DNA of 64,000 nt from a virus (IMGVR_UViG_3300043464_001836:32002-96001); one strand, 5' to 3'; positions 23,460-63,536 are shown, counted from the first letter of the stretch. Notes: generated by a model not told the origin, from the sequence alone. Translations and numbers: made by a program.

Positions 23460-23464
23460 AATGT

Positions 23465-23540: not shown

Positions 23541-23551
23541 GATAGTACTTC

Positions 23552-24019: not shown

Positions 24020-24050
24020 TTTATTCTATTCTATTCTATTGTTAATATGT

Positions 24051-26279: not shown

Positions 26280-26386
26280 ATTATGCCTCCTTCGGCATTC
26301 ACAAGAGGGTAACCTCTTGCTTATCTTTTAAGAAATATGAGAAAAGTTTCTAGTTAGAACTTTACTAGAAGTGCAACATATTTTAT

Positions 26387-26466
26387 TGGTGGAGCATATC
26401 AGGATCGAACTGATCTGTTCTTCCTCGGTGCAAGCGAGGTAGCCACGCCAAGCAGCCCCATGCCCC
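26387..26466 (-). tRNA. tRNA-Ala (UGC)
   Basis: Acceptor GGGGCAT/ATGCTCC with a G3:U70 pair, anticodon stem CCTCG/CGAGG, loop CTTGCAC, T-arm ATCAG-TTCGATC-CTGAT, encoded CCA. Confidence 0.55.
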
Positions 26467-34443: not shown

Positions 34444-34873
34444 ATTTTTCCTTAACAGGGTGAAAGGTATCTACAAGCAGCTTGCCAGCCACTCACAAAT
34501 ACTTTATATTGTAAGTCCCAAAACTCTTGATATTTCATAAATTTGGGGTCTACAGGTCTGGGCCCATATATCTTCTCAAAAGCTGAAAGAGCAGGGCTTA
34601 CCAAATTTGATTCGTTCATATAACCTCACTAGAATAATTTGTGGGTACAACAGGGTTAGCACTACATAAGCAAATACCTTATATAGCGTAGGATTGTATA
34701 GATAATTCATAGGTTTTCTCCATATTGAAATGATATTATACGCGTGCGTACCGTGTACTTCAAGCCTGAATTTATGTGGTTAGGCGCAGGGAGTAGCGAG
34801 AAGAGACATAAAATTTTACACTTACTTTTACACTAAAAACGCACTATAATATCCTTTCTGAAATTACTTAAAG

Positions 34874-35020
34874 GCCAAACAAATGAAAAACTGGCAGCTT
34901 TTCGCTATTATTACTACTATCTATAACGCGGCTTTTCAGGTAGCTGCAGAAATAAACCCTCTTGTTATCTTTAGCCTTGCTACAGTATTCGCTATTTTTA
35001 CTTTCTATACTGCACATAAA
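34874..35020 (+). CDS. small membrane peptide (48 aa)
   Basis: MKNWQLFAIITTIYNAAFQVAAEINPLVIFSLATVFAIF... between two copies of a TATAAT-containing promoter repeat. Confidence 0.3.
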
Positions 35021-35099
35021 GACGTGTAAAATTTTACACTTGTTTTTACACTAAAAACGCACTATAATATCTTTCTTAACTCAATAAAGGACTAAACGA

Positions 35100-38681: not shown

Positions 38682-39422
38682 ATGGTTGAAGATAATGTAG
38701 TTGAAGAGATTTATGCCGTGTTGGTTGAGCAGTTTGGGGTCGACAACCTATTTTTACCTAAGAGGGGTAAAAAGAGACCTAGAACCATTACTTGGAAAGA
38801 CTTTATCAAAGCTACACTAGAAGAAGAGGAATTATATAAGTATTGTGGATACGCTAATACTGGCTCCTTCAGCTCTGGTATAAAGAGAGCACACCCTAGT
38901 ATAGTAAAGGAAAAAGGTAGTAGGCCTTGGTTTCACTTCCTTCTATATTTGGCTGGATATAAGCGCTGTCCAGAGTGTAACAACGTACTAATGGTTACTA
39001 ATTTTAGTTATACTAGTACGCATAAGGATGGCTTGCATACAGAGTGCAAAGAATGCGCAAGAGAATGTGCAAGAGAGTACTATAAGAAAAATAAAGGGTC
39101 TATCTTAGAGAAAGCAAGGGAGTACCAACAAGCTAATAAAGAGCAGTATATGGAGCAGCATAAAAAATACTACCTAAACAATAAGCATATATTTGCAGCA
39201 TATAATGCTAAACGCCGAGCTACTAAGCTACAGGCTTCCCCACTATGGGCAGACCAGGAAAAGATAAAACAGATATACGCAACACGACCAGAAGGTTATC
39301 ACGTAGACCATATAATTCCATTACAACATCCACTAGTATGTGGCCTTCATTGTGAATTTAACTTACAGCACCTACCGGCAGCTGAAAACCTTACTAAGCA
39401 CAATAGGTTTGATTTAGATTAA
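38682..39422 (+). CDS. HNH homing endonuclease (family 1 paralog)
   Basis: Shared N-terminal EEIYAxLVEQFGV...LPKRGKKRPRTITW module and C-terminal HNH module. Confidence 0.8.
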   Translation: MVEDNVVEEIYAVLVEQFGVDNLFLPKRGKKRPRTITWKDFIKATLEEEELYKYCGYANTGSFSSGIKRAHPSIVKEKGSRPWFHFLLYLAGYKRCPECNNVLMVTNFSYTSTHKDGLHTECKECARECAREYYKKNKGSILEKAREYQQANKEQYMEQHKKYYLNNKHIFAAYNAKRRATKLQASPLWADQEKIKQIYATRPEGYHVDHIIPLQHPLVCGLHCEFNLQHLPAAENLTKHNRFDLD

Positions 39423-40568: not shown

Positions 40569-40883
40569 ATGACGTACAAATTGTTTATTGATGATGAGCG
40601 GTACCCACCTAATGATGGGGGTACTTGGGTTATCAGTCGTACCTCTCAAGAGGCTATTGCTGCTGTACTTTCTCTAGGTATGCCAGCCTTTATCTCCTTT
40701 GACCATGACTTGGGTGGTGAGGATACGTCTATGGTTTTCGTTAATTGGCTTATTGACTATATGCTTGATAATCACAAAGACCAGTTTGACTTCTACGTCC
40801 ACTCTCAAAATCCTGTTGGAAAGGTTAATATTGAGAAGAGACTGCTAGGTCTCTTTACTTACTTGGAGCAATGTAATGATTAA
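40569..40883 (+). CDS. hypothetical small protein with a receiver(REC)-like signature (FIDDER...DHDLGG)
   Basis: KLFIDDERYP ... ISFDHDLGG pattern reminiscent of CheY-like/phage REC-like domains. ATGA overlaps on both sides. Confidence 0.35.
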   Translation: MTYKLFIDDERYPPNDGGTWVISRTSQEAIAAVLSLGMPAFISFDHDLGGEDTSMVFVNWLIDYMLDNHKDQFDFYVHSQNPVGKVNIEKRLLGLFTYLEQCND

Positions 40884-41676
40884 AATTTATGCAGTACAAG
40901 GTGGTGAAATTCCTTACGAACAGTTTATCTTCCCTGGTGGTGAGGTGTCTATTCGACTAGATATTTCTGCTATGCAGTACGTTAAGCAGTTCACTATTAG
41001 TGCTAATCTTCAGTCACCGACTGAAATAGTTAATCTAGTAATGATTAAAGATGCGATTCAGCGACAAGTACCAGAAGCCCTAATCGAGCTTTACATGCCT
41101 TACGTTCCTTATGCTCGCCAAGACCGAGTATCCGTTCCTGGTGAAGCACTCTCTATTAGGGCTTTCGCTGCTATTATCAACTCGATGCACTTCTTCAAAG
41201 TAACTGCTATGGATGTACACAGCCAGGTTACTGAAGATTCTATCGACCGTCTAGAAGTAATCCCTCAGTGGCATCTAGTAGGCCAATTCATTGACGGGCG
41301 TTCTGACTACGTACTAGTAGCGCCAGATAAAGGTGCTGTAGAAAAGACAGCTGCATGTGCTAGAGCACTAGACCTAGAGTATATTACTGCTAGTAAAGTG
41401 CGCGACCCAGTAACTGGTAAAATTACAGGTACTGAGGTTAACTTCGGTAATGTTAACCTAAAAGGTAAGCGCCTACTAATTGTGGATGATATCTGTGACG
41501 GGGGGGGTACCTTTACTGAGCTAGCTAAGGCCATTAGAGCTAAGGTTGATAATCCTATTGACCTGTATGTGACTCACGGAATTTTCTCTAAGGGCCTCAA
41601 TGAGCTTTATAGCCTGTTCGAGACGATTTACTGTGCTAACCCTTGGTTTGAGGATGAAAGGATTACTACTCTATGA
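40876..41676 (+). CDS. Ribose-phosphate pyrophosphokinase (Prs)-like enzyme; could instead be an ADPR-pyrophosphate synthetase (Adps)
   Basis: PRPP/PRTase-type motif LLIVDDICDGGGTF and the Prs-like fold order. Confidence 0.65.
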   Translation: MIKIYAVQGGEIPYEQFIFPGGEVSIRLDISAMQYVKQFTISANLQSPTEIVNLVMIKDAIQRQVPEALIELYMPYVPYARQDRVSVPGEALSIRAFAAIINSMHFFKVTAMDVHSQVTEDSIDRLEVIPQWHLVGQFIDGRSDYVLVAPDKGAVEKTAACARALDLEYITASKVRDPVTGKITGTEVNFGNVNLKGKRLLIVDDICDGGGTFTELAKAIRAKVDNPIDLYVTHGIFSKGLNELYSLFETIYCANPWFEDERITTL

Positions 41677-42236
41677 GCCACTATAAAGGGAGGGATCCAT
41701 TTGATCCTAAATGTGCTTGTGGTAGCAATAAGTTCTCTGATGAGTGTACTTGCAACATCTCCACAACTCAAGGTAGAAGTATGATTCACTACGAACAAGG
41801 CGATGTATTCGCCAGCCTGCCAAAGGCCTGTATCTTTGTACACGGCTGTAATGCACAACGTACTATGGGTTCTGGAGTAGCTAAGGTTATTAAAGACCGC
41901 TATCCAGAAGTTTACTATGGCTACCTAACTATGGTAATGAACCTAGGTATGGTCTCTATAGTCAAGTTAGAAGAGCAGGTATTTTGTAACGCTATCACAC
42001 AGCAGTACTATGGTAGAGATCCTAATCGCTGCTACGTTGACTATAGAGCAGTAGAGGATGCACTAGCAAAGGTAGCTACTATTGCTAGAACTCTAGAACT
42101 TCCGGTTTACATGCCCTTCATTGGTGGTGGTCTAGGTGGTGGAGATAGGCTAGTATTAAGCCAAATCTTCGAGAGCGTCTTCTGGGAAGTTGAGGTGCAT
42201 ATTTTTTCACTTGAATCTGCACCAATTTCCGCGTAA
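41673..42236 (+). CDS. Macro-domain (ADP-ribose-binding/processing) protein with an N-terminal Cys-rich zinc ribbon
   Basis: VHGCNAQRTMGSGVAKVI (macro NAAN-GGGV-like block) and PFIGGGLGGG (macro Gly-rich loop). N-terminal CACGSNKFSDECTC. Confidence 0.5.
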   Translation: MSHYKGRDPFDPKCACGSNKFSDECTCNISTTQGRSMIHYEQGDVFASLPKACIFVHGCNAQRTMGSGVAKVIKDRYPEVYYGYLTMVMNLGMVSIVKLEEQVFCNAITQQYYGRDPNRCYVDYRAVEDALAKVATIARTLELPVYMPFIGGGLGGGDRLVLSQIFESVFWEVEVHIFSLESAPISA

Positions 42237-42271
42237 AATATCTTTTCTGAAATGAATTAAGGACTAAAACT

Positions 42272-43753
42272 ATGAATCCCGCAACTAACACTGACTTCTA
42301 CAAAACTGGTCACATCTTTCAGTACCCCGAAGGCACTGAAAAGGTCTACTCTAACTGGACTGCTCGTTCGGCCAAGAACTTCAAGGACTTCCAAGGTCAA
42401 TTCGACGACAAGGTAGTCTTCTTCGGCCTTCAAGCGGCTTTGATTAAACTACAGAAAGAATGGGAAGAAAAGTTCTTCTCTCTGCCTGTAGACGTAGCTG
42501 TAGCTAAGTACAATCGCCGTATGCGTACTAGCATTGGCCCTATTGATACTAAGCACATTGAAGCGCTTTGGAACCTTGGCTTTCTACCTATCAAGGTTAA
42601 GGCCCTTCCCGAAGGTTCTCGTGTTAACCTACGTGTACCTATGTTTACTGTAGTTAACACCCACTCTGAATTCGGTTGGCTCACTAACTACCTAGAGACC
42701 TACCTCTCTTCTGAAGTTTGGAAGACCTGTACCAACGCAACTATCGCCTTTGAGTATCGTAAGCTGTTTGACAAGTATGCGCAGATTACTGGTACGCCTC
42801 GCGAGTTTGTCCAGTTTCAGGGTCACGACTTCTCAATGCGTGGTATGGATGGAACTGAGTCAGCAGGACGTTCTGGAGCTGCTCACCTTCTTTCCTTCGT
42901 AGGAACGGATACTATTCCTGCAATTGACTTCCTTGAGGATTTCTACTTCGCTAATGCTGAGCAGGAACTTATTGGAACCTCTGTTCCAGCTACAGAGCAC
43001 TCAACTATGTCAGCGGGTGGAGAAGTTGATGAGGCTGCTACCTTCAAGCGTCTTATTACTGAAGTGTACCCTTCTGGTATTATTAGTATCGTATCCGATA
43101 CTTGGGACCTGTGGGGAGTGCTAACTGTTATTGCACCTTCTCTAAAGGAAGAAATCCTTAACCGCGGCCGTGATGCCTTCGGCATGTCCAAGGTAGTGTT
43201 TCGCCCTGACTCCGGGGATCCTGTTAAAATCATTGTAGGTGACTGTAGTGCTGAACCTGGTACTCCTGAGTTCAAAGGTGCTGTTCAACTACTGTGGGAA
43301 AACTTTGGTGGAACCTTTACTGATAATGGCTTCAAGCAAGTAAATGAGCACGTTGGTCTTATCTATGGTGACTCTATTACTCCTGCTCGTGCTAGGGCAA
43401 TCCTAGAAGGTCTAGCTAACAAGGGCTTTGCTAGTGGTAACATTGTGTTTGGTATTGGTTCTTACACGTACCAAATGAACACTCGTGATACCTTTGGCTT
43501 TGCTATGAAGGCTACCTACGCTGTAGTTAATGGTGTTGGCCGAGAACTCTTCAAGAACCCTAAAACTGACTCTGGTATGAAGAAGTCTGCTAAGGGTCTG
43601 CTTCGTGTTGAACTAGAAGATGGTGAGTTTGTTCTATACGATCAGCAAACTGAACTAGAAGAGACATTAGGAGTACTTGAAACTGTATTCCTTAACGGTA
43701 AGCTAGTTAAGCAAACCAGCCTTGCAGAAGTTCGTAAGAATCTGCTAGGCTAA
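42272..43753 (+). CDS. nadV: Nicotinamide phosphoribosyltransferase (Nampt/NadV)-family enzyme; could be the Namat variant
   Basis: 493 aa, Nampt-family length and conserved blocks (FQGHDFSMRGMDG, GIISIVSDTWD, GLIYGDSIT). Confidence 0.75.
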   Translation: MNPATNTDFYKTGHIFQYPEGTEKVYSNWTARSAKNFKDFQGQFDDKVVFFGLQAALIKLQKEWEEKFFSLPVDVAVAKYNRRMRTSIGPIDTKHIEALWNLGFLPIKVKALPEGSRVNLRVPMFTVVNTHSEFGWLTNYLETYLSSEVWKTCTNATIAFEYRKLFDKYAQITGTPREFVQFQGHDFSMRGMDGTESAGRSGAAHLLSFVGTDTIPAIDFLEDFYFANAEQELIGTSVPATEHSTMSAGGEVDEAATFKRLITEVYPSGIISIVSDTWDLWGVLTVIAPSLKEEILNRGRDAFGMSKVVFRPDSGDPVKIIVGDCSAEPGTPEFKGAVQLLWENFGGTFTDNGFKQVNEHVGLIYGDSITPARARAILEGLANKGFASGNIVFGIGSYTYQMNTRDTFGFAMKATYAVVNGVGRELFKNPKTDSGMKKSAKGLLRVELEDGEFVLYDQQTELEETLGVLETVFLNGKLVKQTSLAEVRKNLLG

Positions 43754-46352: not shown

Positions 46353-47102
46353 ATGATTGAAGAAGAAATTTATAACCTTTTAGTCGAGCGGTTTGGGGTT
46401 AGCGAAGTCTTTTTACCAAAGAGAGGTAAAAAGAGACCTAGAACCATTACTTGGCTAGAATTTATTAAAGTAGTTCTACAGGTAGAACCAATGGCCCTAC
46501 CAAAGTTTTGTGGGTATTCTAATAGCAACTTTGGTACTGGTGTAAAAACATTGCATAGTGCTATAGTAAAGGAAAAAGGTAAAAGACAGTGGGCTCACTA
46601 CTTTCTAGCTTTGGTTGGCTATAAGAGATGTAGTGAATGTAAGATAATATTACCTGTAAAAACCTTTAACCGGAATACCCATAATACAGATGGCTTGCGA
46701 CCTAGCTGTAAAAATTGTGACGCCACTTATCGTAAGTCTAATAGGGCTAGTAAAAATGCGCTACAGGTTGTCTATTATAAGGCAAATAAAGAGCGTTATA
46801 GAGTTCTTAACAAAAAGTGGCGAGAATCTAATAAAGACCGTATTAAAGAGTACTGTGAAAAGAATAGACATATATTTGCAGCATATGCTGCAAAACGCAG
46901 AGCAATTAAGCTACAAGCAACCCCCAATTGGGCAAACCTCATAACTATAAAACAAATTTATGAAACGTGCCCTGATGGCTATCACGTAGACCATATAGTT
47001 CCTTTACAGAATCCTTTAGTATGTGGCCTTCATTGTGAGTTCAACCTTCAACATCTACCTGCCCTAGAAAACCTAACTAAGAGTAATAAATTTGAAATAT
47101 AG
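46353..47102 (+). CDS. HNH homing endonuclease (family 1 paralog)
   Basis: Shared N- and C-terminal modules. Conserved structured leader 46278..46352. Confidence 0.8.
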   Translation: MIEEEIYNLLVERFGVSEVFLPKRGKKRPRTITWLEFIKVVLQVEPMALPKFCGYSNSNFGTGVKTLHSAIVKEKGKRQWAHYFLALVGYKRCSECKIILPVKTFNRNTHNTDGLRPSCKNCDATYRKSNRASKNALQVVYYKANKERYRVLNKKWRESNKDRIKEYCEKNRHIFAAYAAKRRAIKLQATPNWANLITIKQIYETCPDGYHVDHIVPLQNPLVCGLHCEFNLQHLPALENLTKSNKFEI

Positions 47103-48303: not shown

Positions 48304-49023
48304 ATGATAGAAGAAATTTATACTGCTCTAGTTGAGCAGTTTGGGGTTGGAGTAGTATTCTTACCTAAGTATAGAAAGAATAGAGTTAAGGACATAACTT
48401 GGCTAGAGTTTATCGAAGCTGCTTTAGAAATAAGTACAGAAGAGCTATATAAGTATTGTGGTTACTCTGAGGCTACTAATTTTAGTAGAGGTTTAAGGCA
48501 AGCATACCCACATATAATAAAAGAAAAAGGTGGTAGACCTTGGAGATTATATCTCCCTACACTAGTACATAAGAGGCACTGCTGTTCCTGTGGTAGGTTG
48601 CTAGAGTATATTAATTTTAGTCCAGATAGTACAAAGAAAGATGGTTTACACTCTGAATGTAAATCCTGTAAGTTAGAGTATTACAAAGGTAACAAAAACC
48701 ATATTTTAGATAGACAGAGATACTACCGGCAAGCTAATACTGAACTTATTAAAGAGAGGCATAAAGAGTACTATAGTAATAACAAGTACCTATTTAATGC
48801 AAGAAATGCTAAGCGTAGAGCAACTAAACTACAGGCGACCCCAAATTGGGCAAACCTCATAACTATAAAACAAATTTATGAAACGTGCCCTTCTGGGTAC
48901 CATGTAGACCATATAGTTCCGTTACAGCATGACTTAGTGTGTGGCCTTCATTGTGAATTTAATCTTCAACATTTAACAGCTAAAGAAAACTTAAGTAAAG
49001 GTAATAAATTTGAGGTAGATTGA
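48304..49023 (+). CDS. HNH homing endonuclease (family 1 paralog)
   Basis: Shared modules. Conserved leader 48230..48303. Confidence 0.8.
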   Translation: MIEEIYTALVEQFGVGVVFLPKYRKNRVKDITWLEFIEAALEISTEELYKYCGYSEATNFSRGLRQAYPHIIKEKGGRPWRLYLPTLVHKRHCCSCGRLLEYINFSPDSTKKDGLHSECKSCKLEYYKGNKNHILDRQRYYRQANTELIKERHKEYYSNNKYLFNARNAKRRATKLQATPNWANLITIKQIYETCPSGYHVDHIVPLQHDLVCGLHCEFNLQHLTAKENLSKGNKFEVD

Positions 49024-49155
49024 GGTAGACTTAGATAAGCCCTGGGATTCTTTAGGATTCTAGGGCTTTTGCATTACTACGCTATAATTTTAAGCTTACT
49101 TTACCTACTTAATTACTTTATAATTACTTTATTGGTATAGCTTATAGGAACAAAA

Positions 49156-49380
49156 GTGGAAAGCATTCTGGTTGATGGTAGGAAGTATAAGTACCGTATA
49201 GTTAAAGAAGGCGGTATGTTCAAGTGGTTTATTATAGTGTATGAAGGTGGTTTTAATTACTACATTCCTATCACTCTCGATAATGATTATTTATATAATA
49301 AATATGGGGATAGTCCTGGTGGCCAAGCAGAGGTTGCTGAAAAGATTAAAGACTATTTCGCTGAGGAGCATTACATATGA
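49156..49380 (+). CDS. hypothetical protein
   Basis: ORF. Confidence 0.35.
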   Translation: MESILVDGRKYKYRIVKEGGMFKWFIIVYEGGFNYYIPITLDNDYLYNKYGDSPGGQAEVAEKIKDYFAEEHYI

Positions 49381-49547
49381 TTAAGATTACTGTTGTTGCT
49401 AAACCTGTCGAAACTATCACTTGTACTGGGTGTCTTAGAGAGCTCTATCCTGGTTGTTCAAATGAGGATGTTGATTTCCTAGTAAATCTAGGACTACCTA
49501 GCTGTCATGACGGTTATATTTACATCCTGGAGAAGAAAGATGATTAA
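49377..49547 (+). CDS. small Cys-motif protein, family member 2
   Basis: CTGC...C...LGLPSC..GYIYILEKKDD. Not in the track (56 aa). Confidence 0.4.
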   Translation: MIKITVVAKPVETITCTGCLRELYPGCSNEDVDFLVNLGLPSCHDGYIYILEKKDD

Positions 49548-49737
49548 AACTGTAAATATTGTAGCAAAGCCTTCTGGTAGGAATAGCTGTGGAGGCTGCC
49601 TCCTGATGGGTATTGGCTGCTCATCTATGGTTGGTGACCACTTTGAAGACCCTAGGGTTGATTTCGTTTTCAGTCTAGGACTTCCTGATTGTGTTCTAGG
49701 GTACATTTACGTTTTGGAGAAGAAAGATGAAGTTTAA
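49540..49737 (+). CDS. small Cys-motif protein, family member 3
   Basis: CGGC...C...LGLPDC..GYIYVLEKKDE. Tandem with member 2. Confidence 0.4.
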   Translation: MIKTVNIVAKPSGRNSCGGCLLMGIGCSSMVGDHFEDPRVDFVFSLGLPDCVLGYIYVLEKKDEV

Positions 49738-49936
49738 GATTTACATTATCAATGAGGCTGGAGAGCAGGTTAGGTATAAACCTAATAAAGGAGAAATGCT
49801 AGTAATGAACTCTCAAGGGGTTTACTTTGTTTATAACAACGAACCATTCTACCCCTCTATTACTAGACTATACGATAAGATTGGGAACTATATAGTAGTT
49901 TGGGAGAAAGAAAAGCTACTTGAGGTTCTTAAATAG
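49727..49936 (+). CDS. hypothetical protein
   Basis: ORF. Confidence 0.35.
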   Translation: MKFKIYIINEAGEQVRYKPNKGEMLVMNSQGVYFVYNNEPFYPSITRLYDKIGNYIVVWEKEKLLEVLK

Positions 49937-49998
49937 TTTCAACCTCTAAAGTTTGGGGTCGAATGCTTTAACGAAATACTCTATAATTACTTTATTGA

Positions 49999-50295
49999 AT
50001 GGAGAACGAAATGGAATTCCTTAAACTACTTATTAAAGACTTGAAAGATACTTTCACTGGTAACTCTCCCAAAGTACCTGAAAAAACTTATGCTGAAATG
50101 GTTAGGGAGATTCATGTTCAACGGTTCTGTGAAGGTTTGCTACTCAGCATTGAATACGATAAGTCTGGTGATATGCAGCGTGATGTTCGTATTGAGGATG
50201 CATCTTTACGAGAGCGGACAATTAATTTTCTAAATGAAAAGGGTTTTATTGTCAAAGTATTTCATGCTTCTAAAACTATTCAAGTTAAATGGTGA
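49999..50295 (+). CDS. hypothetical protein
   Basis: Same promoter/ATGGAGAACG leader as the Cys-motif family. Confidence 0.35.
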   Translation: MENEMEFLKLLIKDLKDTFTGNSPKVPEKTYAEMVREIHVQRFCEGLLLSIEYDKSGDMQRDVRIEDASLRERTINFLNEKGFIVKVFHASKTIQVKW

Positions 50296-50675
50296 AACCA
50301 ATGCTATATTTAATTCGCGGTGTGCCCGGTTCTGGTAAGTCTACAAAGGCTAGAGAACTACTAGAACAAGGGCTAGCTACTGTTCATCTAGAAGCTGATA
50401 TGTATTTTGAAGATGAAGAAGGTAACTATAAGTTTGAGCCTACTAAGATTGGTAGAGCACATAGCTGGTGTTTGTACCTTACTAGAAAGCACTTAGAAGA
50501 AGGGCACAACGTAGTTGTCTCTAATACCTTTATTAAGCGTTGGGAACTAGCTAAGTATGTTGCACTAGGATTTCCTTATGAGATCATTGAGTGTAAAGGT
50601 AGCTACGAGAGTGTACACGGTGTTCCGGCTGAAGTTGTTGCTAGAATGAAAGCTAACTATCAAGAGCTTGAGTAA
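50289..50675 (+). CDS. Polynucleotide 5-prime-kinase, kinase domain only (T4 Pnk N-domain-like)
   Basis: P-loop GVPGSGKSTKARE aligns with the T4 Pnk GCPGSGKSTWARE block. Pnk-like residues follow downstream. 128 aa, no phosphatase domain. Confidence 0.55.
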   Translation: MVKPMLYLIRGVPGSGKSTKARELLEQGLATVHLEADMYFEDEEGNYKFEPTKIGRAHSWCLYLTRKHLEEGHNVVVSNTFIKRWELAKYVALGFPYEIIECKGSYESVHGVPAEVVARMKANYQELE

Positions 50676-50716
50676 CACTTTCTACAATTAACACTTTCTA
50701 CAATTTGGGGTAAGAG

Positions 50717-50911
50717 ATGATTAAGATTTATTACTGGTGTGATGGTTGCTGGTGTTACTACAATGAGATTGGTCAGATGAGCCATAAGTCTGATGACTAC
50801 GCTACCCTAGAAGTACCTGATGAGTTTTGTGATCTAGAAATTGATGCGCTAGTTCATGATTTAGTAGCTAAAGAAGTGCTATCATTTGCAGAACTGTTTC
50901 ATAACCTCTAA
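50717..50911 (+). CDS. hypothetical protein
   Basis: ORF. Confidence 0.3.
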   Translation: MIKIYYWCDGCWCYYNEIGQMSHKSDDYATLEVPDEFCDLEIDALVHDLVAKEVLSFAELFHNL

Positions 50912-50974
50912 AACTTAAGAGCTTAAGTTTGGGGTTAACTTTTCTAGTAAAACCTTCTATAATTATTTCTTTGA

Positions 50975-51277
50975 ATGGAGAACGCAATGAAGAAGCATAA
51001 AGAACTAGTAATTGCTTGGCTTAACGGGGCTAAGATTCAGTATAGGCATAATGGCTGTGGTTGGACTGATATTGATGAGCCTAACTGGATAGAAAATATG
51101 GAGTATCAAGTTAAGCCATCCTACACTGAGGAAGTTAAGATTAAAGCAGTAGAAGGTGCTTACTGTGGTGGATGCATCTTTGAAGATCAGATGGTTTGTG
51201 GTTCCCTCATTACCACTATGGAGCTACTAGGACTTCCTAGCTGTCGTGAAGAGGCTATTCACTATGAAACTAATTAA
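50975..51277 (+). CDS. small Cys-motif protein, family member 4
   Basis: CGGC...C...LGLPSC motif. About 40 percent identical to member 1. Confidence 0.45.
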   Translation: MENAMKKHKELVIAWLNGAKIQYRHNGCGWTDIDEPNWIENMEYQVKPSYTEEVKIKAVEGAYCGGCIFEDQMVCGSLITTMELLGLPSCREEAIHYETN

Positions 51278-51536
51278 AGATTTTTTGCAGCGTAGACGTA
51301 ATGCACTTAAAGTAATAAAAGAGGTTGAAGCTGGTTTGTGGGAGCGCTATAGCACTATAGGTAGTAATGCAATGCAACTACATAAAGAAGACTGGCGGCT
51401 ACATATCGCTAATAAAACTGCTTTTCTATATAATTCTAAATACAACACAGAATCAATGCTAGGTGATTTTTGGGGTAGGTTTGTTTATGCCGTCTTGTGC
51501 AAAAAGCCTGTTAAGCCTAGCGCACCTGTTTACTAG
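51246..51536 (+). CDS. hypothetical protein
   Basis: ORF. Confidence 0.35.
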   Translation: MKRLFTMKLIKDFLQRRRNALKVIKEVEAGLWERYSTIGSNAMQLHKEDWRLHIANKTAFLYNSKYNTESMLGDFWGRFVYAVLCKKPVKPSAPVY

Positions 51537-51636
51537 AACATAAGTTTAACAATACGCAAGTTTAACCAATTTCACAACTAGAAGTTTACGGTTTACCAAT
51601 TCAACAGTTAGAAGTTTACGGTTTGGGGTCAAGAGA

Positions 51637-52416
51637 ATGAAGCCACTAGTAATGAAGAAAGAACATAACGGATTGACCATGCTTAAGTACTCTAAGCGAG
51701 TGTTCTGGGACAATCTATGGAACGATGAATTAATTGAGTGTCGTGGGCGGGTTGTTGACTCTGAAGGTAACGTAGTAGTAAACCCGTTCACCAAGGTTTT
51801 CAACTATCTAGAAAATGATACCAAAGTTCCACTAGACGAAGTTGTACTAGCAGTTGAAAAGATTAACGGTTTTATGGCAGCTCTTACGTGGCATGACGAA
51901 GCGTGGCTAGTAACGACTACTGGTTCTTTCGACTCTAAGTACGTTGAAATTGCTAAGCGTTACATTGGAGATTCTGGGCTACCTGAGCTAAATGGTGTTA
52001 CTTATTTGTTTGAGATTGTAGCGCCGGAAGATCCTCATATTATTCCTGAGCTAGAAGGAGCTTATCTACTAGGATACCGTACCGCTGGTTCACTAGTATA
52101 CACCTCTTATCTAGAAAAGGAAAAGAAGCTAGACTCACTAGCACGACAGTTTGGATATAAGCGTCCTAAGTACTTTCAGGCTACGTTTGGTGAGGTACTA
52201 GAGTTATCTAAGAAAGTTAGGCATGAGGGTTTTTGCATCTATGGTTCTGTTAACTTCAAGCTAAAGTCACCTTGGTATCTACAGTCTAAAGCTATTGCAC
52301 GCTCTAACCGTCGTCTAGCTCTTGACGAAGAGTTCTCTCAAATGCTCCTAGAAATGCCTAAGGTCTTGGGTGAGCAAGAGCGACTAGAGTTCATTCGTAA
52401 CTACTTTAAGGTCTAG
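51637..52416 (+). CDS. RNA ligase, Rnl1 family (T4 RnlA-like), short form
   Basis: LIECRGRVVDSEGNVV...NPFTKVFNYLEN aligns with T4 Rnl1 ALECRGIMFEMDGEKPV...NPFT. Motif I region AVEKINGFMAAL aligns with T4 LTKEDGSLVS. Confidence 0.55.
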   Translation: MKPLVMKKEHNGLTMLKYSKRVFWDNLWNDELIECRGRVVDSEGNVVVNPFTKVFNYLENDTKVPLDEVVLAVEKINGFMAALTWHDEAWLVTTTGSFDSKYVEIAKRYIGDSGLPELNGVTYLFEIVAPEDPHIIPELEGAYLLGYRTAGSLVYTSYLEKEKKLDSLARQFGYKRPKYFQATFGEVLELSKKVRHEGFCIYGSVNFKLKSPWYLQSKAIARSNRRLALDEEFSQMLLEMPKVLGEQERLEFIRNYFKV

Positions 52417-53532
52417 AAATGGAAATAGAAATGGAATTAGAAAGTGTTACTGACCCCAAACTGCAAATCTTTAACTTGGAACCGTTAAGAGTGCTTTCCC
52501 CAAACCGTAAAAGGTGATTAAACTGTAAAATCTAGTTCACTAGAAAACCTAAATGAACTAGAAAGATTGGCCCTGGCTGTTGTAGCTAGGGCTTTTTCTT
52601 TGGTTCTAGGTGGTTTCGACTGTTAAAGCAGTTTGATAAGTTTGGGGTGGGATACAACTAGTCGAACTCTCGATTTTTCCAGTTTGGGGTGACTTTTAAT
52701 GAAGCGAAAAAATACACTTGAACATCGAGCGAATTTTCCGATAAAAATATAGGTGAGATTTTCTGATTTAGATGTGGTAGGAAAATGCGAAAACAGCGAA
52801 AAATAAATTTTGATAATGTCCCTCGCTACGGTTTTCCCAGTTTGGGGTCCACGTTTGCTATCGTTTCTACACTGAAAAATTGCTTGAGAAAAAAAAATAT
52901 TGTTTTTGTAGTGACAGGAGTGTATAATGTTAGGAACAGAACGACAGATGCGCTGCTTTAGAGAAACAGCAGATAGGTTTTTTCACCATGGATAAAAGGC
53001 CTATCTGCTCTATAAAGTCTAAAGCAAGCGCATCTGTACACGAGGGCGAAGCTGTAATTATTAAAATCAAAGAAAAAAAGACGTAAAATAAGAATGTTTC
53101 GGGTTTTTACCGTTTTCCGTTGATTTTAAGCGAACTGAGCCACCCCTTCTCAAGCGGTTTCTAGAGAAAAGAATTTCTAGAAATGTTAAATTAATATTCT
53201 CCAGCCCTTTCTAATTCCTAGAAAGGTAATTTCTTGATATATTTAGGTTTTTTCGACTTTTTGGAATTTTGATTTCTACAATTTGGGGTCAGAAAAGCGC
53301 AGAACCAGTTTGACCCCAAACCGCAAGGGTTTCTAATCCGCTTTTGACCCCAAACTGGAAAAATCGGTCAAACCTATAAAGTTTGTGCTATCTAGTGTGT
53401 AATTTTGAGGTTGAAAGTCTCTACAGTTTGGGGTAAAATATTATTTAAGATGTAAGTGGGTGAGGACTGTGGTTTGTAAGTTCTTATTACCACTTAAAAT
53501 AATACCAAACCAAGTCAGTAAAGGAAACAAAA

Positions 53533-54422
53533 TGAAGCAGAGTAATTCAAAACAGCAAAGTAACCTAGCCTCACTAGAAGTAGACTTCTTACGTGCGGCT
53601 TTAGAAAATCCAAGTCTAATTAAGACTAACGATAAAGACTGGTTAACACACATTAAGCCAGTAGTAACGGCAGCACGCCCTACTATAGAAATTAATAAAA
53701 ATACTAGACTTTCTATGGAGCAACTTTTTAGCTTCTTAGGTACATCTAAAGTCCTAGAAGGAGGTTATACTACAGAGCAAGTACGCCTAGTTTACAGGAT
53801 TCTAGCTACGCACAACCGCTCAGATTACGTAGTGTCACAAAGTAAAAATACACAACACTCTTCTGCGGTACCTATTATCATGGCTGCTTACAGAGATAAG
53901 TACCAGATTAAGTACTCTAGTTGGATTCACGACCATATTGGAATGTCTAACGCTATTTTAGGTAAAACCCTATCCGAGGTTCTAGAGGTTAAAGAATACC
54001 TAGATTCACTAGGTAAGCAAGCAAAGCGTGCTCAAAAAACCTACGACACGGAGATGGGAGATAGTGAGTATGAAGACATGCTAGGCATTGAATCTCCTAG
54101 CCATGAGCCTATTGATGTATTTGACTTTGACTTTAGAGTGGACCTAAAGAATAGAGCCACCAAAAACGGTTCTATTCTAGATACTGGATATGCAACAATT
54201 AAGCGAGTATTCAAACCTGACCACCCACTAGGGTCGGAGTTTTTATCCAAGTTCTACTGGCACATGCTAACGCAGACATGGATTTTCTCACCAAGTATTC
54301 GCCACCGTGACATGATTACTAATTTGCAGGATTTTGATGTACTAGATCCTTCATTGACACCTCTAACAAACTTAGAGGATAAGTCCAACCCTAGCAAGAA
54401 AAGCTCTTTACTAGATTGGTAA
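53533..54422 (+). CDS. hypothetical protein (about 296 aa) embedded in the repeat-rich zone
   Basis: ORF with ribosome-binding site AAGGAAACAAAATG. A rho-independent terminator follows. Confidence 0.45.
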
Positions 54423-61524: not shown

Positions 61525-62244
61525 ATGATTGATGATAAATTAGTAGAAGAGATTTACGCTGCGTTAGTTGAACGGTTTGGTATTAGTGAAATATTCTTGC
61601 CTAAGAGGGGTAAGAATAGACCATTAGATATAACTTGGAAGGACTTTATTAAAGCTGCTTTAGAGCTAGAGCCAACAGAGTTATATAGCTTCTGTGGTTA
61701 TGCTAATAAAGTTAATTTTAGCAAGGGGCTAAAGAATACACATCCTAATATAATGCTAGATAAAGATGGAAGACATTGGGCAGGGTACTTACTATGTCTA
61801 GTTGGCTATAAACTATGCCCAGAATGTGGTGAAGTGCTACCTACATCAGTATTTAGTCACAGTAATAGTACAAAAGATGGATTACAGTCTACCTGTAAAG
61901 GCTGCGACGCTACCTCTAGGGAAGCAAATAAAGAATACTTTAAAGAGTACTCTAAAAAATATTACGCAGCAAATAAAGAATACTTTAAAGAGTACTATGA
62001 AAGTAACAAGCACCTGTATATAGCTTATAGTGCGAAACGCAGAGCTTCAAAGCTTAAAGCGACCCCAAAATGGGCAAACCTGGTAGCCATAAAAGAAATT
62101 TACCAAACATGCCCAGAGGGGTATCATGTAGACCATATAATTCCACTTCAAGGTAAATTAGTGTGTGGTCTTCATTGTGAGTTCAATCTACAGCATCTTC
62201 TAGCTAGTGAGAATTTAATTAAAGGTAATAGGTTCGAAGTATGA
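61525..62244 (+). CDS. HNH homing endonuclease (family 1 paralog) between the terminase genes
   Basis: Shared N- and C-terminal modules. Confidence 0.8.
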   Translation: MIDDKLVEEIYAALVERFGISEIFLPKRGKNRPLDITWKDFIKAALELEPTELYSFCGYANKVNFSKGLKNTHPNIMLDKDGRHWAGYLLCLVGYKLCPECGEVLPTSVFSHSNSTKDGLQSTCKGCDATSREANKEYFKEYSKKYYAANKEYFKEYYESNKHLYIAYSAKRRASKLKATPKWANLVAIKEIYQTCPEGYHVDHIIPLQGKLVCGLHCEFNLQHLLASENLIKGNRFEV

Positions 62245-63536
62245 TAAAAGTATCCAGACCCGATATCAGCAGTACAGAAATTCAACAGTTCTCAGCACAT
62301 GAACGTTTTATTAAGCTTCCTATTGATAAGTACTTAGAATTACTAGGCATGACTCTTAATGCACCTCAAATTGCAATAGTTAATGCGCTTAATAACCCTA
62401 AGTATAGATTCGTTACTGCTGCAGTATCTCGTCGCGTTGGTAAGACTACAATTTCTAACATCATAGCACAAGTAATTACTCTAGTACCTGGAAGTGCGGT
62501 ACTGATCATGTCTCCTAACTACTCCCTTTCTAGTATTTCATTTGAAGAGCAGCGTAAGCTGATCAAGAAATTTGACCTAGAAGTGAGTCGTGATAATATG
62601 AAGGACCGAATGATAGAACTATCTAATGGTTCTAGCATCCGTATGGGTTCCGTATCACAAGTTGACTCAGTTGTTGGCCGTTCATATGACCTCATTCTCT
62701 TTGACGAGGCGGCCTTAACGACTGAGGGTAAAGAGGCGTTCGAAGTTGCTTTAAGGCCTACCCTAGATAAACCTAATTCTAAAGCTATTTTTGTCTCCAC
62801 ACCACGTGGACGCTTAAATTGGTTTTCTCAGTATTGGGAAAACGGGTTCTCCGACCTACCGGCCTATTCTAAGTGGGCTTCAGTTCATGCAGACTATAGA
62901 GCGAATCCTCGCGCAAACGAAGAAGATATTGAAGAAGCTCGCGCTACTATGTCTAAAGCCAAGTTCGAGCAGGAATACATGGCTAGCTTTAGCGTATTCG
63001 AGAATCAGGTATACAAGTTCGATGCCGATGCTAGCGTAGTTGAAGTTGATACTAGCGGAATGGAACATATCATGGGTATCGACGTTGGTTTCCGGGACCC
63101 TACCGCTATGCTAGTTCTAGCGTTTGATGGTGAGAAGTTCTATGCTGTAGACGAGTATCTAGAAGCAAACAGAACAACTGACGAACATGCAGCTGTATGT
63201 AAAGAGCTAGAAAGTAAGTACGACGTACAGGTAATCTTTATTGATTCCGCAGCACAGCAGACTCGCTTCGACTGGGCACAGAATCACGATATCTCTACTA
63301 CTAACGCTACTAAGTCAGTTCTAGATGGTATCGCCTATGTTCAAGCAATTGTGGAGCAAGGTAAGCTAGTTGTTAGTCCTAAGTGTAAACATACGCTAGC
63401 AGCACTAGACCAGTACCGCTGGGATCCTTCACCAAGTCTATTGCGTGAGAAACCACTTCATGACCAGTTTTCCCACGTTGCGGATGCGCTTCGCTATGCG
63501 TTATACAGCTATCGTAGTAACGTTGGCATATATTAA
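62241..63536 (+). CDS. Terminase large subunit
   Basis: Walker A VSRRVGKTT, Walker B LILFDEAA and a C-terminal nuclease-like domain (MGIDVGFRDPTA). ATGA overlap with the HNH gene. Confidence 0.8.
   Translation: MIKVSRPDISSTEIQQFSAHERFIKLPIDKYLELLGMTLNAPQIAIVNALNNPKYRFVTAAVSRRVGKTTISNIIAQVITLVPGSAVLIMSPNYSLSSISFEEQRKLIKKFDLEVSRDNMKDRMIELSNGSSIRMGSVSQVDSVVGRSYDLILFDEAALTTEGKEAFEVALRPTLDKPNSKAIFVSTPRGRLNWFSQYWENGFSDLPAYSKWASVHADYRANPRANEEDIEEARATMSKAKFEQEYMASFSVFENQVYKFDADASVVEVDTSGMEHIMGIDVGFRDPTAMLVLAFDGEKFYAVDEYLEANRTTDEHAAVCKELESKYDVQVIFIDSAAQQTRFDWAQNHDISTTNATKSVLDGIAYVQAIVEQGKLVVSPKCKHTLAALDQYRWDPSPSLLREKPLHDQFSHVADALRYALYSYRSNVGIY

What the first reader, a model, noticed from the sequence alone, without database searches (positions are those of the whole stretch)
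50289..52416. Pnk kinase-domain-only protein and a truncated Rnl1-family RNA ligase: a split tRNA-repair toolkit
50289..50675 matches the T4 Pnk N-terminal kinase domain (GVPGSGKST...) but lacks the phosphatase domain. 51637..52416 aligns with the T4 Rnl1 N-terminal nucleotidyltransferase domain (ECRG and NPFT blocks) but is only 259 aa, so it lacks the C-terminal tRNA-specificity domain. The 3-prime-phosphatase step may be supplied by one of the two metallophosphoesterases (12374..12946, 33694..34443) or by the low-molecular-weight phosphatase-like protein (30627..31052).
Basis: partly seen in the sequence, partly recalled or inferred. Interest (0 to 1): 0.6.

Follow-up and report, generated by a model that had tools for sequence, protein, structure and literature searches.

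The report
Three-gene phage RNA repair kit
This T5-like phage carries a stand-alone RNA 5'-kinase, a minimal T4-Rnl1-type RNA ligase and, elsewhere in the genome, a metallophosphoesterase; together they form a predicted RNA break-repair kit that hundreds of sequenced phages also carry, so it is real and sensible but not new.

Summary
Both ORFs exist exactly as described. 50289..50675 is a 124-128 aa P-loop kinase of the polynucleotide-kinase type: it aligns with the T4 Pnk kinase domain at 97.5% hhalign probability and has no phosphatase domain. 51637..52416 is a 259 aa Rnl1-type adenylyltransferase. It keeps the lysine nucleophile (K75) and motifs III, IV and V, and it lacks the T4 C-terminal tRNA-specificity domain.

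The short form is not a truncation. It is typical of a clade present in about 720 GenBank phages, and the closest relatives are 253-266 aa.

Across 49 de-replicated viral loci, a small metallophosphoesterase lies within 1.5 kb of this ligase in 43. A PNK-like kinase lies within 3 kb in 35, and natural kinase-ligase fusions exist. The window's ortholog of that phosphoesterase is 12374..12946(-), so this is the best candidate for 3' end-healing. The second metallophosphoesterase is rarely linked. The LMW-PTP-like protein is adjacent to the module in only two loci.

In Vibrio phage Kronos (Demerecviridae) the three genes are contiguous; here they are scattered. A 2025 Pakpunavirus paper already reads the kinase-only Pnk plus ligase pair as tRNA repair. 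The window also encodes an Rnl2-type ligase and 14 tRNAs.

Verdict: an ordinary new member of a known but biochemically uncharacterised module. tRNA as the substrate is inferred, not shown.

The parts
50289..50675 (+). Stand-alone PNK-like P-loop kinase (128 aa; alternative start at 50301 gives 124 aa). Predicted RNA 5'-OH kinase for 5' end-healing.
   Evidence: AAA_33 E=1e-13. Profile vs PDB: T4 Pnk, PNKP, CthPnk. hhalign to T4 Pnk 97.5%. Model pLDDT 91, fold matches PSTK and T4 Pnk. P-loop K17/S18 and D37 (=T4 D35) are invariant. Fused to the ligase in P0071, P0118 and loci L010-L017.
51637..52416 (+). [quoted passage not shown] No T4-type C-domain.
   Evidence: PF09511 above cut-off. Profile to 2C5U E=2e-13. 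hhalign covers T4 47-251 only. Residue map: R36, K53, F55, K75-x-N77-G78, E126, E197-G198, K208-x-K210 correspond to T4 R54, K75, F77, K99/D101/G102, E159, E227-G228, K240/K242. Model pLDDT 91.7; top fold hits T4 Rnl1 and Trl1-LIG.
12374..12946 (-). Small binuclear metallophosphoesterase (190 aa, PHROG 547). Predicted 2',3'-cyclic phosphodiesterase / 3'-phosphatase for 3' end-healing. It is the conserved genomic partner of the ligase, lying about 38 kb away here on the opposite strand, just downstream of the tRNA cluster.
   Evidence: phrog_547 E=2.5e-55. All metallophosphoesterase motifs are invariant: D17xH19, G61D62, G87N88H89, H122, G140H141, H143. 37-42% identical to the phosphoesterase next to the ligase/kinase in FV3-like, PAK_P1-like and Aeromonas PAc phages and in Kronos gp175. 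Within 1.5 kb of the ligase in 43 of 49 de-replicated loci.
52569..52593 (+). Intrinsic-terminator-like hairpin (11-bp stem followed by a T-run) about 150 nt after the ligase stop. Likely end of the co-directional gene string that contains the kinase and ligase.
   Evidence: This is a consensus match only.
30627..31052 (-). LMW-PTP-like cysteine phosphatase (141 aa). Possible occasional accessory of the module, at low confidence.
   Evidence: No Pfam or PHROG hit. Family profile vs PDB: LMW-PTP 7dhd E=2.4e-5, with C27, R33, S34 and D106 invariant. Homologs lie immediately downstream of the phosphoesterase in L005 and L079, in the order kinase-ligase-MPE-PTP. Found in only 3 GenBank phages.
35100..36068 (+). 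Second RNA ligase, Rnl2-type (322 aa). Part of the phage's wider RNA-repair capacity; not part of the three-gene module.
   Evidence: phrog_548 E=1e-59. PF09414 E=4e-11. 38-48% identical to annotated 'RNA ligase 2' genes of phages that also carry the short Rnl1-like ligase, e.g. Kronos and EspYZU08.

Best explanation
The kinase (50289..50675), the minimal Rnl1-type ligase (51637..52416) and the metallophosphoesterase (12374..12946, minus strand) are three separately encoded enzymes of one heal-and-seal RNA repair pathway.

Inferred mechanism: an RNA cut by a metal-independent ribonuclease carries a 2',3'-cyclic phosphate and a 5'-OH. The metallophosphoesterase opens and removes the cyclic phosphate to give a 3'-OH. 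The kinase transfers a phosphate from an NTP to the 5'-OH. The ligase self-adenylylates on K75, transfers AMP to the 5'-phosphate and seals the break.

The most likely biological role is to counter host ribonucleases that cut tRNAs or other translation RNAs during infection. This would complement the phage's 14 tRNA genes and its Rnl2-type ligase.

Shown here: family membership, intact catalytic motifs, conserved gene linkage, and gene fusion of kinase and ligase. Inferred: the enzymatic activities, the order of steps, and the RNA target.
For: Homology with intact active sites for all three proteins.

Gene fusions: kinase-ligase fusion proteins of about 420-430 aa occur in nature, namely P0071, P0118 and loci L010-L017 and L030/L032.

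Linkage in 49 ligase clusters de-replicated at 90% identity, from 80 IMG/VR loci plus 3 GenBank phage loci: the phosphoesterase lies within 1.5 kb of the ligase in 43, a PNK-like kinase of either of two AAA_33 families lies within 3 kb in 35, and all three lie together in 30. Gene order varies, which argues for selection on the linkage rather than shared ancestry of one arrangement.

GenBank distribution: the ligase and kinase occur in the same phage groups with matching record counts. Escherichia 199/197, Pseudomonas 175/172, Vibrio 86/89, Klebsiella 36/36, Acinetobacter 24/24, Campylobacter 23/23.

The three genes are contiguous in Aeromonas phage PAc and in Vibrio phage Kronos, and clustered within about 1 kb of each other in FV3-like and PAK_P1-like phages.

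Other recurrent neighbours of the ligase fit RNA repair or translation rescue: a DSP-PTPase, an HD hydrolase and an RF-1/ArfB-like protein.

Precedents: binuclear metallophosphoesterases do carry out 2',3'-cyclic phosphate end-healing in bacterial Pnkp (PMC3675462, PMC1920235). Split ligase and kinase enzymes exist in Mucorales (PMC10946426, PMC11571804). The same reading has been published for the Pakpunavirus homologs (PMC12846349), and the general scheme for jumbo phages (PMC7824862).

In the window, the kinase and ligase lie in one co-directional gene string that ends in a terminator-like hairpin.
Against: No member of this ligase clade, this kinase clade or this phosphoesterase clade has been assayed, as far as my literature searches show.

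The kinase lacks counterparts of T4 Pnk R38 (F40 here) and R126 (E107 here), and has a shortened lid.

The ligase has Thr where T4 Rnl1 has Lys119 and Asn where T4 has Asp101. From memory, both are important in T4. It also lacks the domain that gives T4 Rnl1 its tRNA specificity (PMC6379707).

In this window the phosphoesterase is 38 kb from the other two genes and on the other strand, so co-expression is not shown.

The phosphoesterase family is more widespread (1661 GenBank records) than the ligase (723), so it may have broader or different roles.

T4 Rnl1 also has a non-catalytic tail-fibre attachment role.
Confidence: 0.7

Rival explanations
1. The module does repair or process RNA, but the substrate is not host tRNA cut by anticodon nucleases. 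It could act on phage tRNA precursors from the adjacent 14-gene tRNA cluster, on mRNA or rRNA breaks, or generically on any single-stranded RNA ends.
For: The ligase lacks the T4 C-domain, which is what confers anticodon-loop specificity (PMC6379707). The phosphoesterase gene sits directly downstream of the tRNA cluster. A separate Rnl2-type ligase is present, so the two ligases probably have different substrates (PMC7824862 argues that multiple phage RNA ligases are non-redundant).
Against: There is no positive evidence for any particular alternative substrate. ARAGORN reported no introns in the 14 tRNA genes. The best-understood phage precedent, T4, is tRNA repair.
Confidence: 0.2
2. The kinase and phosphoesterase act on nucleotides or signalling molecules, for example in nucleotide salvage or in degrading cyclic-nucleotide immune signals. 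On this view their proximity to the ligase reflects a shared early-gene neighbourhood rather than one pathway.
For: The kinase fold also matches gluconate and APS kinases. The phosphoesterase's closest solved relatives are an uncharacterised Aquifex protein and the generic phosphodiesterase MJ0936. The phosphoesterase is found in many phages that lack the ligase. NAD-salvage genes are also frequent nearby.
Against: Covalent kinase-ligase fusions exist. Tight, order-independent linkage holds in most de-replicated loci. The best full-length sequence matches of the kinase are polynucleotide kinases.
Confidence: 0.08
3. The Rnl1-like protein serves mainly in virion assembly, like the tail-fibre attachment activity of T4 gp63, and its ligase chemistry is secondary.
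For: Database labels read 'RNA ligase and tail fiber protein attachment catalyst'. This label is inherited from T4.
Against: All catalytic residues are invariant across the clade. The gene sits among early, nucleotide-metabolism genes and is linked or fused to a kinase. The clade occurs in phages of differing lineages and tail types, including T5-like Demerecviridae.
Confidence: 0.04

Closest known systems
Bacteriophage T4 Pnkp + Rnl1 tRNA repair pathway (counter-defence to the PrrC anticodon nuclease)
   Same: A P-loop polynucleotide-kinase-type enzyme plus an Rnl1-type ligase encoded by a lytic phage. The ligase shares the Rnl1-specific N-terminal sub-module (R54, K75, F77 equivalents) and motifs I, III, IV and V. 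The kinase shares the P-loop and the catalytic Asp.
   Different: The kinase is a separate 124-128 aa protein with no HAD (DxDxT) phosphatase domain, lacks R38 and R126 equivalents and has a shorter lid. 3' healing is assigned to a separate metallophosphoesterase. The ligase lacks the C-terminal tRNA-specificity domain and has T for K119 and N for D101.
Bacterial Pnkp/Hen1 (Clostridium thermocellum) and Pnkp1-Rnl-Hen1 (Capnocytophaga) RNA repair systems
   Same: The same three chemistries: a P-loop 5' kinase, a binuclear metallophosphoesterase as the 2',3' phosphatase, and an adenylyltransferase ligase with an Rnl1-like N sub-module (PMC3675462, PMC6379707). In Pnkp1-Rnl-Hen1 the ligase is also a separate polypeptide (PMC4411300). 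The kinase profile hits CthPnk and Pnkp1.
   Different: Here there are three separate small proteins rather than one trifunctional polypeptide. I did not look for a Hen1 methyltransferase partner, and none appeared among the recurrent neighbours. The phosphoesterase belongs to a different sub-family (aq_1665 / MJ0936-like) and is not detectably lambda-phosphatase-like. By sequence and fold, the ligase is nearest T4 Rnl1 rather than Rnl4.
The same module in sequenced phages: Pakpunavirus (PAK_P1, Adele PaAdele_025/026), Vequintavirus (rV5, FV3), Plateaulakevirus (Aeromonas PAc) and Thalassavirus (Vibrio phage Kronos gp172/173/175)
   Same: Orthologous ligase (37-42% identity), kinase (34-41%) and phosphoesterase (37-42%). 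The Adele paper explicitly notes a polynucleotide kinase lacking the 3'-phosphatase domain next to an RNA ligase and proposes tRNA restoration (PMC12846349).
   Different: In those phages the genes are adjacent or within about 1 kb. In the window, and in its closest metagenomic relative L004, the kinase and ligase are separated by about 1-2 kb of non-conserved small ORFs and the phosphoesterase is elsewhere. The window's ligase belongs to the shortest sub-clade, about 255-265 aa against about 300 aa.
Split fungal tRNA ligase of Mucorales (separate LIG, KIN and CPD proteins)
   Same: A heal-and-seal pathway distributed over separate polypeptides. The stand-alone RNA 5'-OH kinases 9D8A and 9DRZ are among the top profile hits of the phage kinase (PMC11571804, PMC10946426).
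   Different: The fungal pathway uses a 2H cyclic phosphodiesterase and needs a 2'-phosphate end plus Tpt1. Its ligase belongs to the Rnl6 clade, which has its own C-domain (PMC6379707).

Membership tests
Rnl1 family of ATP-dependent RNA ligases (T4 RNA ligase 1; Pfam PF09511) | Motif I lysine nucleophile (T4 K99 in KxxG) in a proper alignment | tested here: met
   K75-I-N77-G78 aligns with T4 K99-E-D101-G102 in hmmsearch and hhalign. K75 and G78 are invariant in 39 and 34 homologs.
Rnl1 family of ATP-dependent RNA ligases (T4 RNA ligase 1; Pfam PF09511) | Nucleotidyltransferase motifs III (E159), IV (E227-G228) and V (K240-x-K242) | tested here: met
   E126, E197-G198 and K208-x-K210 are invariant and aligned.
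Rnl1 family of ATP-dependent RNA ligases (T4 RNA ligase 1; Pfam PF09511) | Rnl1-type N-terminal sub-module with ATP-contacting residues R54, K75 and F76/F77 | tested here: met
   R36 (in ECRG), K53 and F55 (in FTKVFN) align with T4 R54, K75 and F77. The role of these residues is taken from PMC6379707.
Rnl1 family of ATP-dependent RNA ligases (T4 RNA ligase 1; Pfam PF09511) | Pfam curated gathering score | tested here: met
   37.4 bits against a cut-off of 28.3, model positions 1-227 of 227.
Rnl1 family of ATP-dependent RNA ligases (T4 RNA ligase 1; Pfam PF09511) | Distinctive C-terminal domain (T4 residues about 255-374). This domain defines the Rnl1 structural clade and confers tRNA anticodon-loop specificity. 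| tested here: not met
   hhalign stops at T4 residue 251. Only about 40 residues in three short helices follow motif V. No detached homolog of T4 255-374 is present in the window. The defining role of appended domains is taken from PMC6379707.
Rnl1 family of ATP-dependent RNA ligases (T4 RNA ligase 1; Pfam PF09511) | Motif Ia lysine (T4 K119) and motif I aspartate (T4 D101) | tested here: not met
   T95 and N77 are invariant at these positions across the clade. That these residues are essential in T4 is from memory (Wang et al. 2003; Heaphy et al. 1987).
Rnl1 family of ATP-dependent RNA ligases (T4 RNA ligase 1; Pfam PF09511) | Ligase-AMP formation and sealing of 5'-P/3'-OH RNA | not testable with these tools
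   Needs biochemistry.
T4-type polynucleotide kinase-phosphatase (Pnkp), kinase domain | P-loop GxxxxGK(S/T) and catalytic Asp (T4 K15, S16, D35) | tested here: met
   G11-x-x-G14-x-G16-K17-S18 and D37 are aligned and invariant.
T4-type polynucleotide kinase-phosphatase (Pnkp), kinase domain | Arg38 and lid Arg126, the substrate- and phosphate-contacting arginines | tested here: not met
   T4 R38 aligns with near-invariant F40. The lid is 9 residues shorter, and R126 aligns with E107. The family has other invariant residues instead: R10, H58, H110. That these arginines are essential in T4 is from memory.
T4-type polynucleotide kinase-phosphatase (Pnkp), kinase domain | Fused C-terminal HAD (DxDxT) 3'-phosphatase domain | tested here: not met
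   The protein ends at residue 128. There is no match to T4 Pnkp 148-301 anywhere in the window, and no DxDxT-type motif I in ORFs of 100 aa or more.
   Adenylate, thymidylate and UMP-CMP kinase hits are weak and mostly confined to the P-loop. The full-length matches are polynucleotide kinases.
Binuclear metallophosphoesterase acting as RNA 2',3' end-healing enzyme (as in bacterial Pnkp) | Complete set of metal-binding motifs: DxH, GD, GNH, H, GH, GxH | tested here: met
   D17, H19, G61, D62, G87, N88, H89, H122, G140, H141 and H143 are invariant in 11 diverse homologs.
Binuclear metallophosphoesterase acting as RNA 2',3' end-healing enzyme (as in bacterial Pnkp) | Sequence membership in the lambda-phosphatase / CthPnkp phosphatase sub-family | tested here: not met
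   The PDB hits are aq_1665 (9e-8) and MJ0936 only.
Binuclear metallophosphoesterase acting as RNA 2',3' end-healing enzyme (as in bacterial Pnkp) | Conserved genomic association with an RNA ligase and a polynucleotide kinase | tested here: met
   Within 1.5 kb of the ligase in 43 of 49 clusters, and all three genes together in 30 of 49. Contiguous in phages PAc and Kronos. In the window itself it is 38 kb away.
Binuclear metallophosphoesterase acting as RNA 2',3' end-healing enzyme (as in bacterial Pnkp) | Hydrolysis of RNA 2',3'-cyclic phosphate and 3'-phosphate ends | not testable with these tools
   Needs biochemistry.
Low-molecular-weight protein tyrosine phosphatase (for 30627..31052) | CX5R(S/T) catalytic loop and downstream Asp-Pro general acid | tested here: met
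   C27-x5-R33-S34 and D106 are invariant. They align to LMW-PTP 7dhd at E=2.4e-5.
Low-molecular-weight protein tyrosine phosphatase (for 30627..31052) | Pfam LMWPc model match | tested here: not met
   No Pfam family at E<=0.01. None of the 120 listed homologs carries a precomputed Pfam domain.

The most novel reading that the evidence does not exclude
The short ligase clade, of which the window's 259-aa protein is among the smallest members, may be a structurally distinct class of ATP-dependent RNA ligase. It would be close to the stand-alone Rnl1-like adenylyltransferase that Banerjee et al. (PMC6379707) postulated as the ancestor of Rnl1, Rnl4 and Rnl6. On this reading it has no substrate-specificity domain of its own and gets its RNA specificity in trans, by forming a complex with its dedicated kinase and metallophosphoesterase partners. 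The variant active-site residues (T for K119, N for D101; the kinase without R38/R126) would then reflect a partly different catalytic solution.
Probability: 0.25. Interest if true: 0.55.

Novelty: new member of a known kind. Interest (0 to 1): 0.35.

Why it matters
tRNA and other translation RNAs are now recognised as frequent targets of bacterial anti-phage immunity. Phage counter-measures are therefore of current interest. This analysis shows that the window's phage has several such measures at once: 14 tRNA genes, an Rnl2-type ligase and a three-enzyme heal-and-seal kit.

It also identifies which of three candidate phosphatases belongs to the kit. The module is very widespread, in at least 600-700 sequenced phages across several families, yet none of its three enzymes appears to have been characterised. 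Each differs from the textbook T4 or bacterial enzymes at residues thought to be essential. That makes the module a good, tractable biochemical target. For this particular window, however, the finding adds one more divergent and scattered example rather than something new.

Tried and rejected
- Near-identity DNA search of 49000..53500 against GenBank phages found nothing. The phage has no close sequenced relative.
- Single-sequence PDB search with the ligase found nothing. A family profile was needed.
- NCBIfam gave no useful family for either protein.
- 41673..42236 (PHROG 'phosphatase') was considered as the missing 3'-phosphatase. It is a macrodomain protein inside an NAD-salvage block and was rejected.
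- The second metallophosphoesterase, 33694..34443, was considered. It is a different family (phrog_1649), has no PDB sequence match, and lies within 10 kb of the ligase in only 5 of 84 loci, so it was down-weighted. Its position next to the Rnl2-type ligase is not reproduced in the 18-kb Kronos stretch examined.
- I searched for a T4-type HAD phosphatase or a detached T4 Rnl1 C-domain in the window and found none. The one weak hit, at 17576..17845, is stop-riddled tRNA-spacer sequence.
- The small ORFs between the kinase and ligase (50717..51536) were tested as possible conserved partners. They have no homologs in any related locus.
- My first strict kinase HMM suggested that most loci lack a kinase. 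Unbiased neighbour clustering showed a second AAA_33 kinase family filling that place.
- The Rfam scan of 49000..54000 found nothing. The promoter scan found fewer sites than chance.
- The Burroughs & Aravind 2016 RNA-repair survey and the Wang et al. 2007 C-domain paper are not held in the library. They are cited only through papers that cite them.


Full report
**1. What is in the sequence**

An identical ligase and kinase are on record from a 114,128-bp contig. Public gene calls give the ligase 259 aa and the kinase 124 or 128 aa. Nothing in GenBank phages is close at the DNA level.

The window as a whole looks like a distant T5-like (Demerecviridae-like) phage. It has a D5-like regulator, an NAD-dependent DNA ligase, a primase and helicase, and 14 tRNA genes interspersed with many HNH/EndoVII-type endonuclease paralogs. 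It also has PhoH, thymidylate synthase, an NAD-salvage block and a large terminase subunit. Genes run on the minus strand up to about 34.4 kb and on the plus strand from about 35.1 kb.

**2. The kinase**

Profile evidence:
- Pfam places it in AAA_33 (E=1e-13, above the cut-off). PHROGs places it in an 'ATPase' family (6e-32), with 'polynucleotide kinase' second (5e-10).
- A profile of 35 homologs finds polynucleotide kinases as its best full-length PDB matches: T4 Pnk 4e-6, mammalian PNKP 1e-5, C. thermocellum Pnk 1.6e-4, Capnocytophaga Pnkp1 1.8e-4, and the stand-alone Mucorales RNA kinases 1e-6 and 3e-6.
- Adenylate-kinase matches cover the P-loop only.
- The AlphaFold model (pLDDT 91) matches O-phosphoseryl-tRNA kinase, T4 Pnk and PNKP.

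hhalign against the T4 Pnk kinase domain gives 97.5% probability. I verified that T4 sequence as 100% identical to T4 records. The residue map is:

| Window kinase | T4 Pnk | Status |
|---|---|---|
| K17/S18 | K15/S16 | conserved |
| D37 | D35 | conserved |
| T80 | T86 | conserved |
| F40 (near-invariant) | R38 | not conserved |
| E107 | R126 | not conserved; the lid is 9 residues shorter |

The family has its own invariant residues: R10, H58, C61 and H110. It is a separate clade, not a T4 Pnk ortholog with the phosphatase removed.

**3. The ligase**

Profile and fold evidence:
- Pfam RNA_lig_T4_1 matches over the entire model (37.4 bits against a cut-off of 28.3).
- A family profile hits T4 Rnl1 structures at 2e-13.
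- The AlphaFold model (pLDDT 91.7) has T4 Rnl1 as its top fold match (3e-11), followed by the fungal Trl1 ligase domain and archaeal Rnl3.

In both hmmsearch and hhalign the residue map is:

| Window ligase | T4 Rnl1 | Status |
|---|---|---|
| R36 | R54 | conserved |
| K53 / F55 | K75 / F77 | conserved |
| K75 | K99 (nucleophile) | conserved |
| G78 | G102 | conserved |
| E126 | E159 | conserved |
| E197-G198 | E227-G228 | conserved |
| K208 / K210 | K240 / K242 | conserved |
| N77 (invariant) | D101 | differs across the clade |
| T95 (invariant) | K119 | differs across the clade |

The conserved residues are invariant in 34-39 homologs.

The hhalign alignment stops at T4 residue 251. Only about 40 residues, in three short helices, follow motif V. 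No detached copy of the T4 C-domain exists in the window.

The short form is not a truncation of this gene. The closest relatives (52-62% identity) are 253-266 aa, and the wider clade is about 280-320 aa. According to PMC6379707, RNA ligase families are defined by the domain appended to the nucleotidyltransferase core, and the T4 C-domain gives anticodon-loop specificity. So this clade has the Rnl1-type catalytic domain but fails the C-domain criterion for the Rnl1 structural family.

**4. The third component**

Ligase and kinase homologs occur in the same groups of GenBank phages, with nearly equal record counts:

| Group | Ligase records | Kinase records |
|---|---|---|
| Escherichia | 199 | 197 |
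| Pseudomonas | 175 | 172 |
| Vibrio | 86 | 89 |
| Klebsiella | 36 | 36 |
| Acinetobacter | 24 | 24 |
| Campylobacter | 23 | 23 |

In FV3-like Vequintavirus, PAK_P1-like Pakpunavirus and Aeromonas phage PAc, a 'phosphoesterase' of about 185 aa lies beside them; in PAc the order is phosphoesterase-ligase-kinase without gaps. BLASTP shows that the window's 12374..12946(-) protein is the ortholog of that phosphoesterase (37-42% identity, E=1e-30 to 1e-44). It keeps every metallophosphoesterase metal-binding motif.

In the 80 IMG/VR loci that encode a ligase relative, together with the 3 GenBank loci, de-replicated to 49 clusters at 90% ligase identity:

| Feature near the ligase | Clusters (of 49) |
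|---|---|
| Phosphoesterase within 1.5 kb | 43 |
| Window-type kinase adjacent (≤1.5 kb) or fused | 16 |
| Second AAA_33 kinase family next to the ligase | 16 |
| Some PNK-like kinase within 3 kb | 35 |
| All three genes together | 30 |

Several loci and database proteins encode kinase-ligase fusions of about 420-430 aa. Gene order varies among lineages.

In Vibrio phage Kronos (Demerecviridae, Thalassavirus), the nearest classified relatives of the window's phage type, the order is ligase gp172, kinase gp173, a small ORF, then phosphoesterase gp175. An Rnl2-type ligase lies 8 kb further on.

**5. The other phosphatase candidates**

- The second metallophosphoesterase (33694..34443) belongs to a different PHROG and is within 10 kb of the ligase in only 5 of 84 loci.
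- The 30627..31052 protein has no Pfam or PHROG hit. Its family (over 500 members, called 'predicted protein tyrosine phosphatase' by JGI) matches LMW-PTPs at profile level, with the CX5RS loop and DP motif aligned. Homologs sit directly after the phosphoesterase in two loci, in the order kinase-ligase-phosphoesterase-PTP. The family is almost absent from cultured phages. It is at most an occasional accessory.
- A PHROG 'phosphatase' at 41673..42236 is a macrodomain protein in an NAD-salvage block.
- No HAD-type phosphatase is present.

**6. Layout in the window**

The kinase and ligase are 961 bp apart. They are separated by three small ORFs that have no homologs in any related locus. A terminator-like hairpin follows at 52569..52593. 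The phosphoesterase lies 38 kb away on the other strand, directly downstream of the tRNA cluster and overlapping an HNH endonuclease gene.

The closest metagenomic relative, L004 (55% ligase identity), shows the same dispersal: the kinase is 2 kb upstream of the ligase and there is no phosphoesterase within 10 kb. The numerous homing-endonuclease paralogs are a plausible cause of the scattering. This is an inference.

**7. Mechanism**

The best-supported reading is a three-polypeptide heal-and-seal RNA repair pathway:
1. The metallophosphoesterase removes the 2',3'-cyclic or 3'-phosphate.
2. The kinase phosphorylates the 5'-OH.
3. The ligase seals the break via a K75-AMP intermediate.

Binuclear metallophosphoesterases perform exactly this healing step in bacterial Pnkp (PMC3675462, PMC1920235). 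Split ligase and kinase enzymes are known in Mucorales (PMC10946426, PMC11571804). The general scheme for phages is laid out in PMC7824862.

The enzymatic activities and the substrate are inferred. Because the specificity domain is missing, tRNA is a reasonable guess, not a conclusion.

**8. Novelty**

The module is present and annotated in hundreds of sequenced phages. A 2025 paper on Pakpunavirus Adele states that a polynucleotide 5'-kinase lacking the 3'-phosphatase domain, together with two RNA ligases, could restore cleaved tRNA (PMC12846349). I found no biochemical study of any of the three clades.

The window therefore contributes a new, divergent and unusually scattered member of a known, computationally recognised kind. 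What this analysis adds:
- the assignment of the phosphoesterase partner;
- quantified linkage and fusion evidence;
- the residue-level differences from the T4 enzymes.

Noticed in passing
window 35100..36068 (+) and 33694..34443 (-): A second RNA ligase of the Rnl2 type (phrog_548 1e-59, PF09414) sits divergently next to the second metallophosphoesterase, across the strand-switch gap at 34444..35099. The pairing is not seen in the 18-kb stretch of Vibrio phage Kronos that was examined, so it may be coincidental.
   Followed up: partly
window 11614..12393(-), 19592..20275(-), 25461..26279(-), 26931..27524(-), 29749..30429(-), 38682..39422(+), 46353..47102(+), 48304..49023(+), 61525..62244(+): At least nine paralogous HNH/EndoVII-like (phrog_1035/26577) putative homing endonuclease genes lie in 64 kb. 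One overlaps the 3' end of the phosphoesterase gene, and two lie just upstream of the kinase region. They may explain why the repair module is scattered in this phage.
   Followed up: partly
window 13568..26466 (-): A cluster of 14 tRNA genes (His, Met x2, Gln, Leu x2, Tyr, Ser, Cys, Lys, Pro, Ile, Arg, Ala), with the repair-module phosphoesterase immediately downstream. The ORF-free spacer at 17.2-18.3 kb translates into tRNA-arm-like strings and may hold degenerate tRNA copies.
   Followed up: no
window 40876..43753 (+): An NAD-salvage or reconstitution-like block: a Prs-like pyrophosphokinase, a macrodomain protein (41673..42236; PDB macrodomain 7e-8) and a NAMPT-like enzyme. NAMPT or Prs homologs are also found near the ligase in 8-13 of 84 related loci.
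   Followed up: partly
window 49377..49547, 49507..49737, 50975..51277 (+): Three small Cys-rich paralogs sharing CxGC...C...LGLPxC (four conserved cysteines) flank the kinase. They have no homologs in any of the 84 related loci.
   Followed up: partly
window 51562..51621 (+): A 30-nt tandem duplication (two copies, 83% identical, each containing TAGAAGTTTACGG) lies immediately upstream of the ligase start codon. The motif occurs nowhere else in the window. It could be a regulatory or leader element.
   Followed up: partly
window 52417..53459 (+): An ORF-poor gap of about 1 kb after the ligase begins with a strong terminator-like hairpin (52569..52593). Rfam and ARAGORN find nothing there.
   Followed up: partly
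loci L015 3585..4154 and 4797..5300; L002 5490..5930; L034 2169..2726: In related viral contigs the short Rnl1-like ligase is also recurrently linked to a second AAA_33 kinase family (16 of 49 clusters), a DSP-PTPase of the 'Swiss Army Knife' type (19 of 49), an HD-domain hydrolase (15 of 49) and an RF-1/ArfB-like protein (5 of 49). The window has none of these.
   Followed up: partly
loci L005 12100..12468 and L079 11373..11744: Homologs (48% and 40% identity) of the window's LMW-PTP-like protein (30627..31052) directly follow the phosphoesterase, in the order kinase-ligase-phosphoesterase-PTP. This large family (over 500 members) has no Pfam model.
   Followed up: partly
window 61525..63536 (+): The large-terminase ORF (62241..63536) matches only positions 257-594 of the PHROG 2 profile and is immediately preceded by, and overlaps, an HNH endonuclease ORF. 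The terminase gene may be split or interrupted.
   Followed up: no
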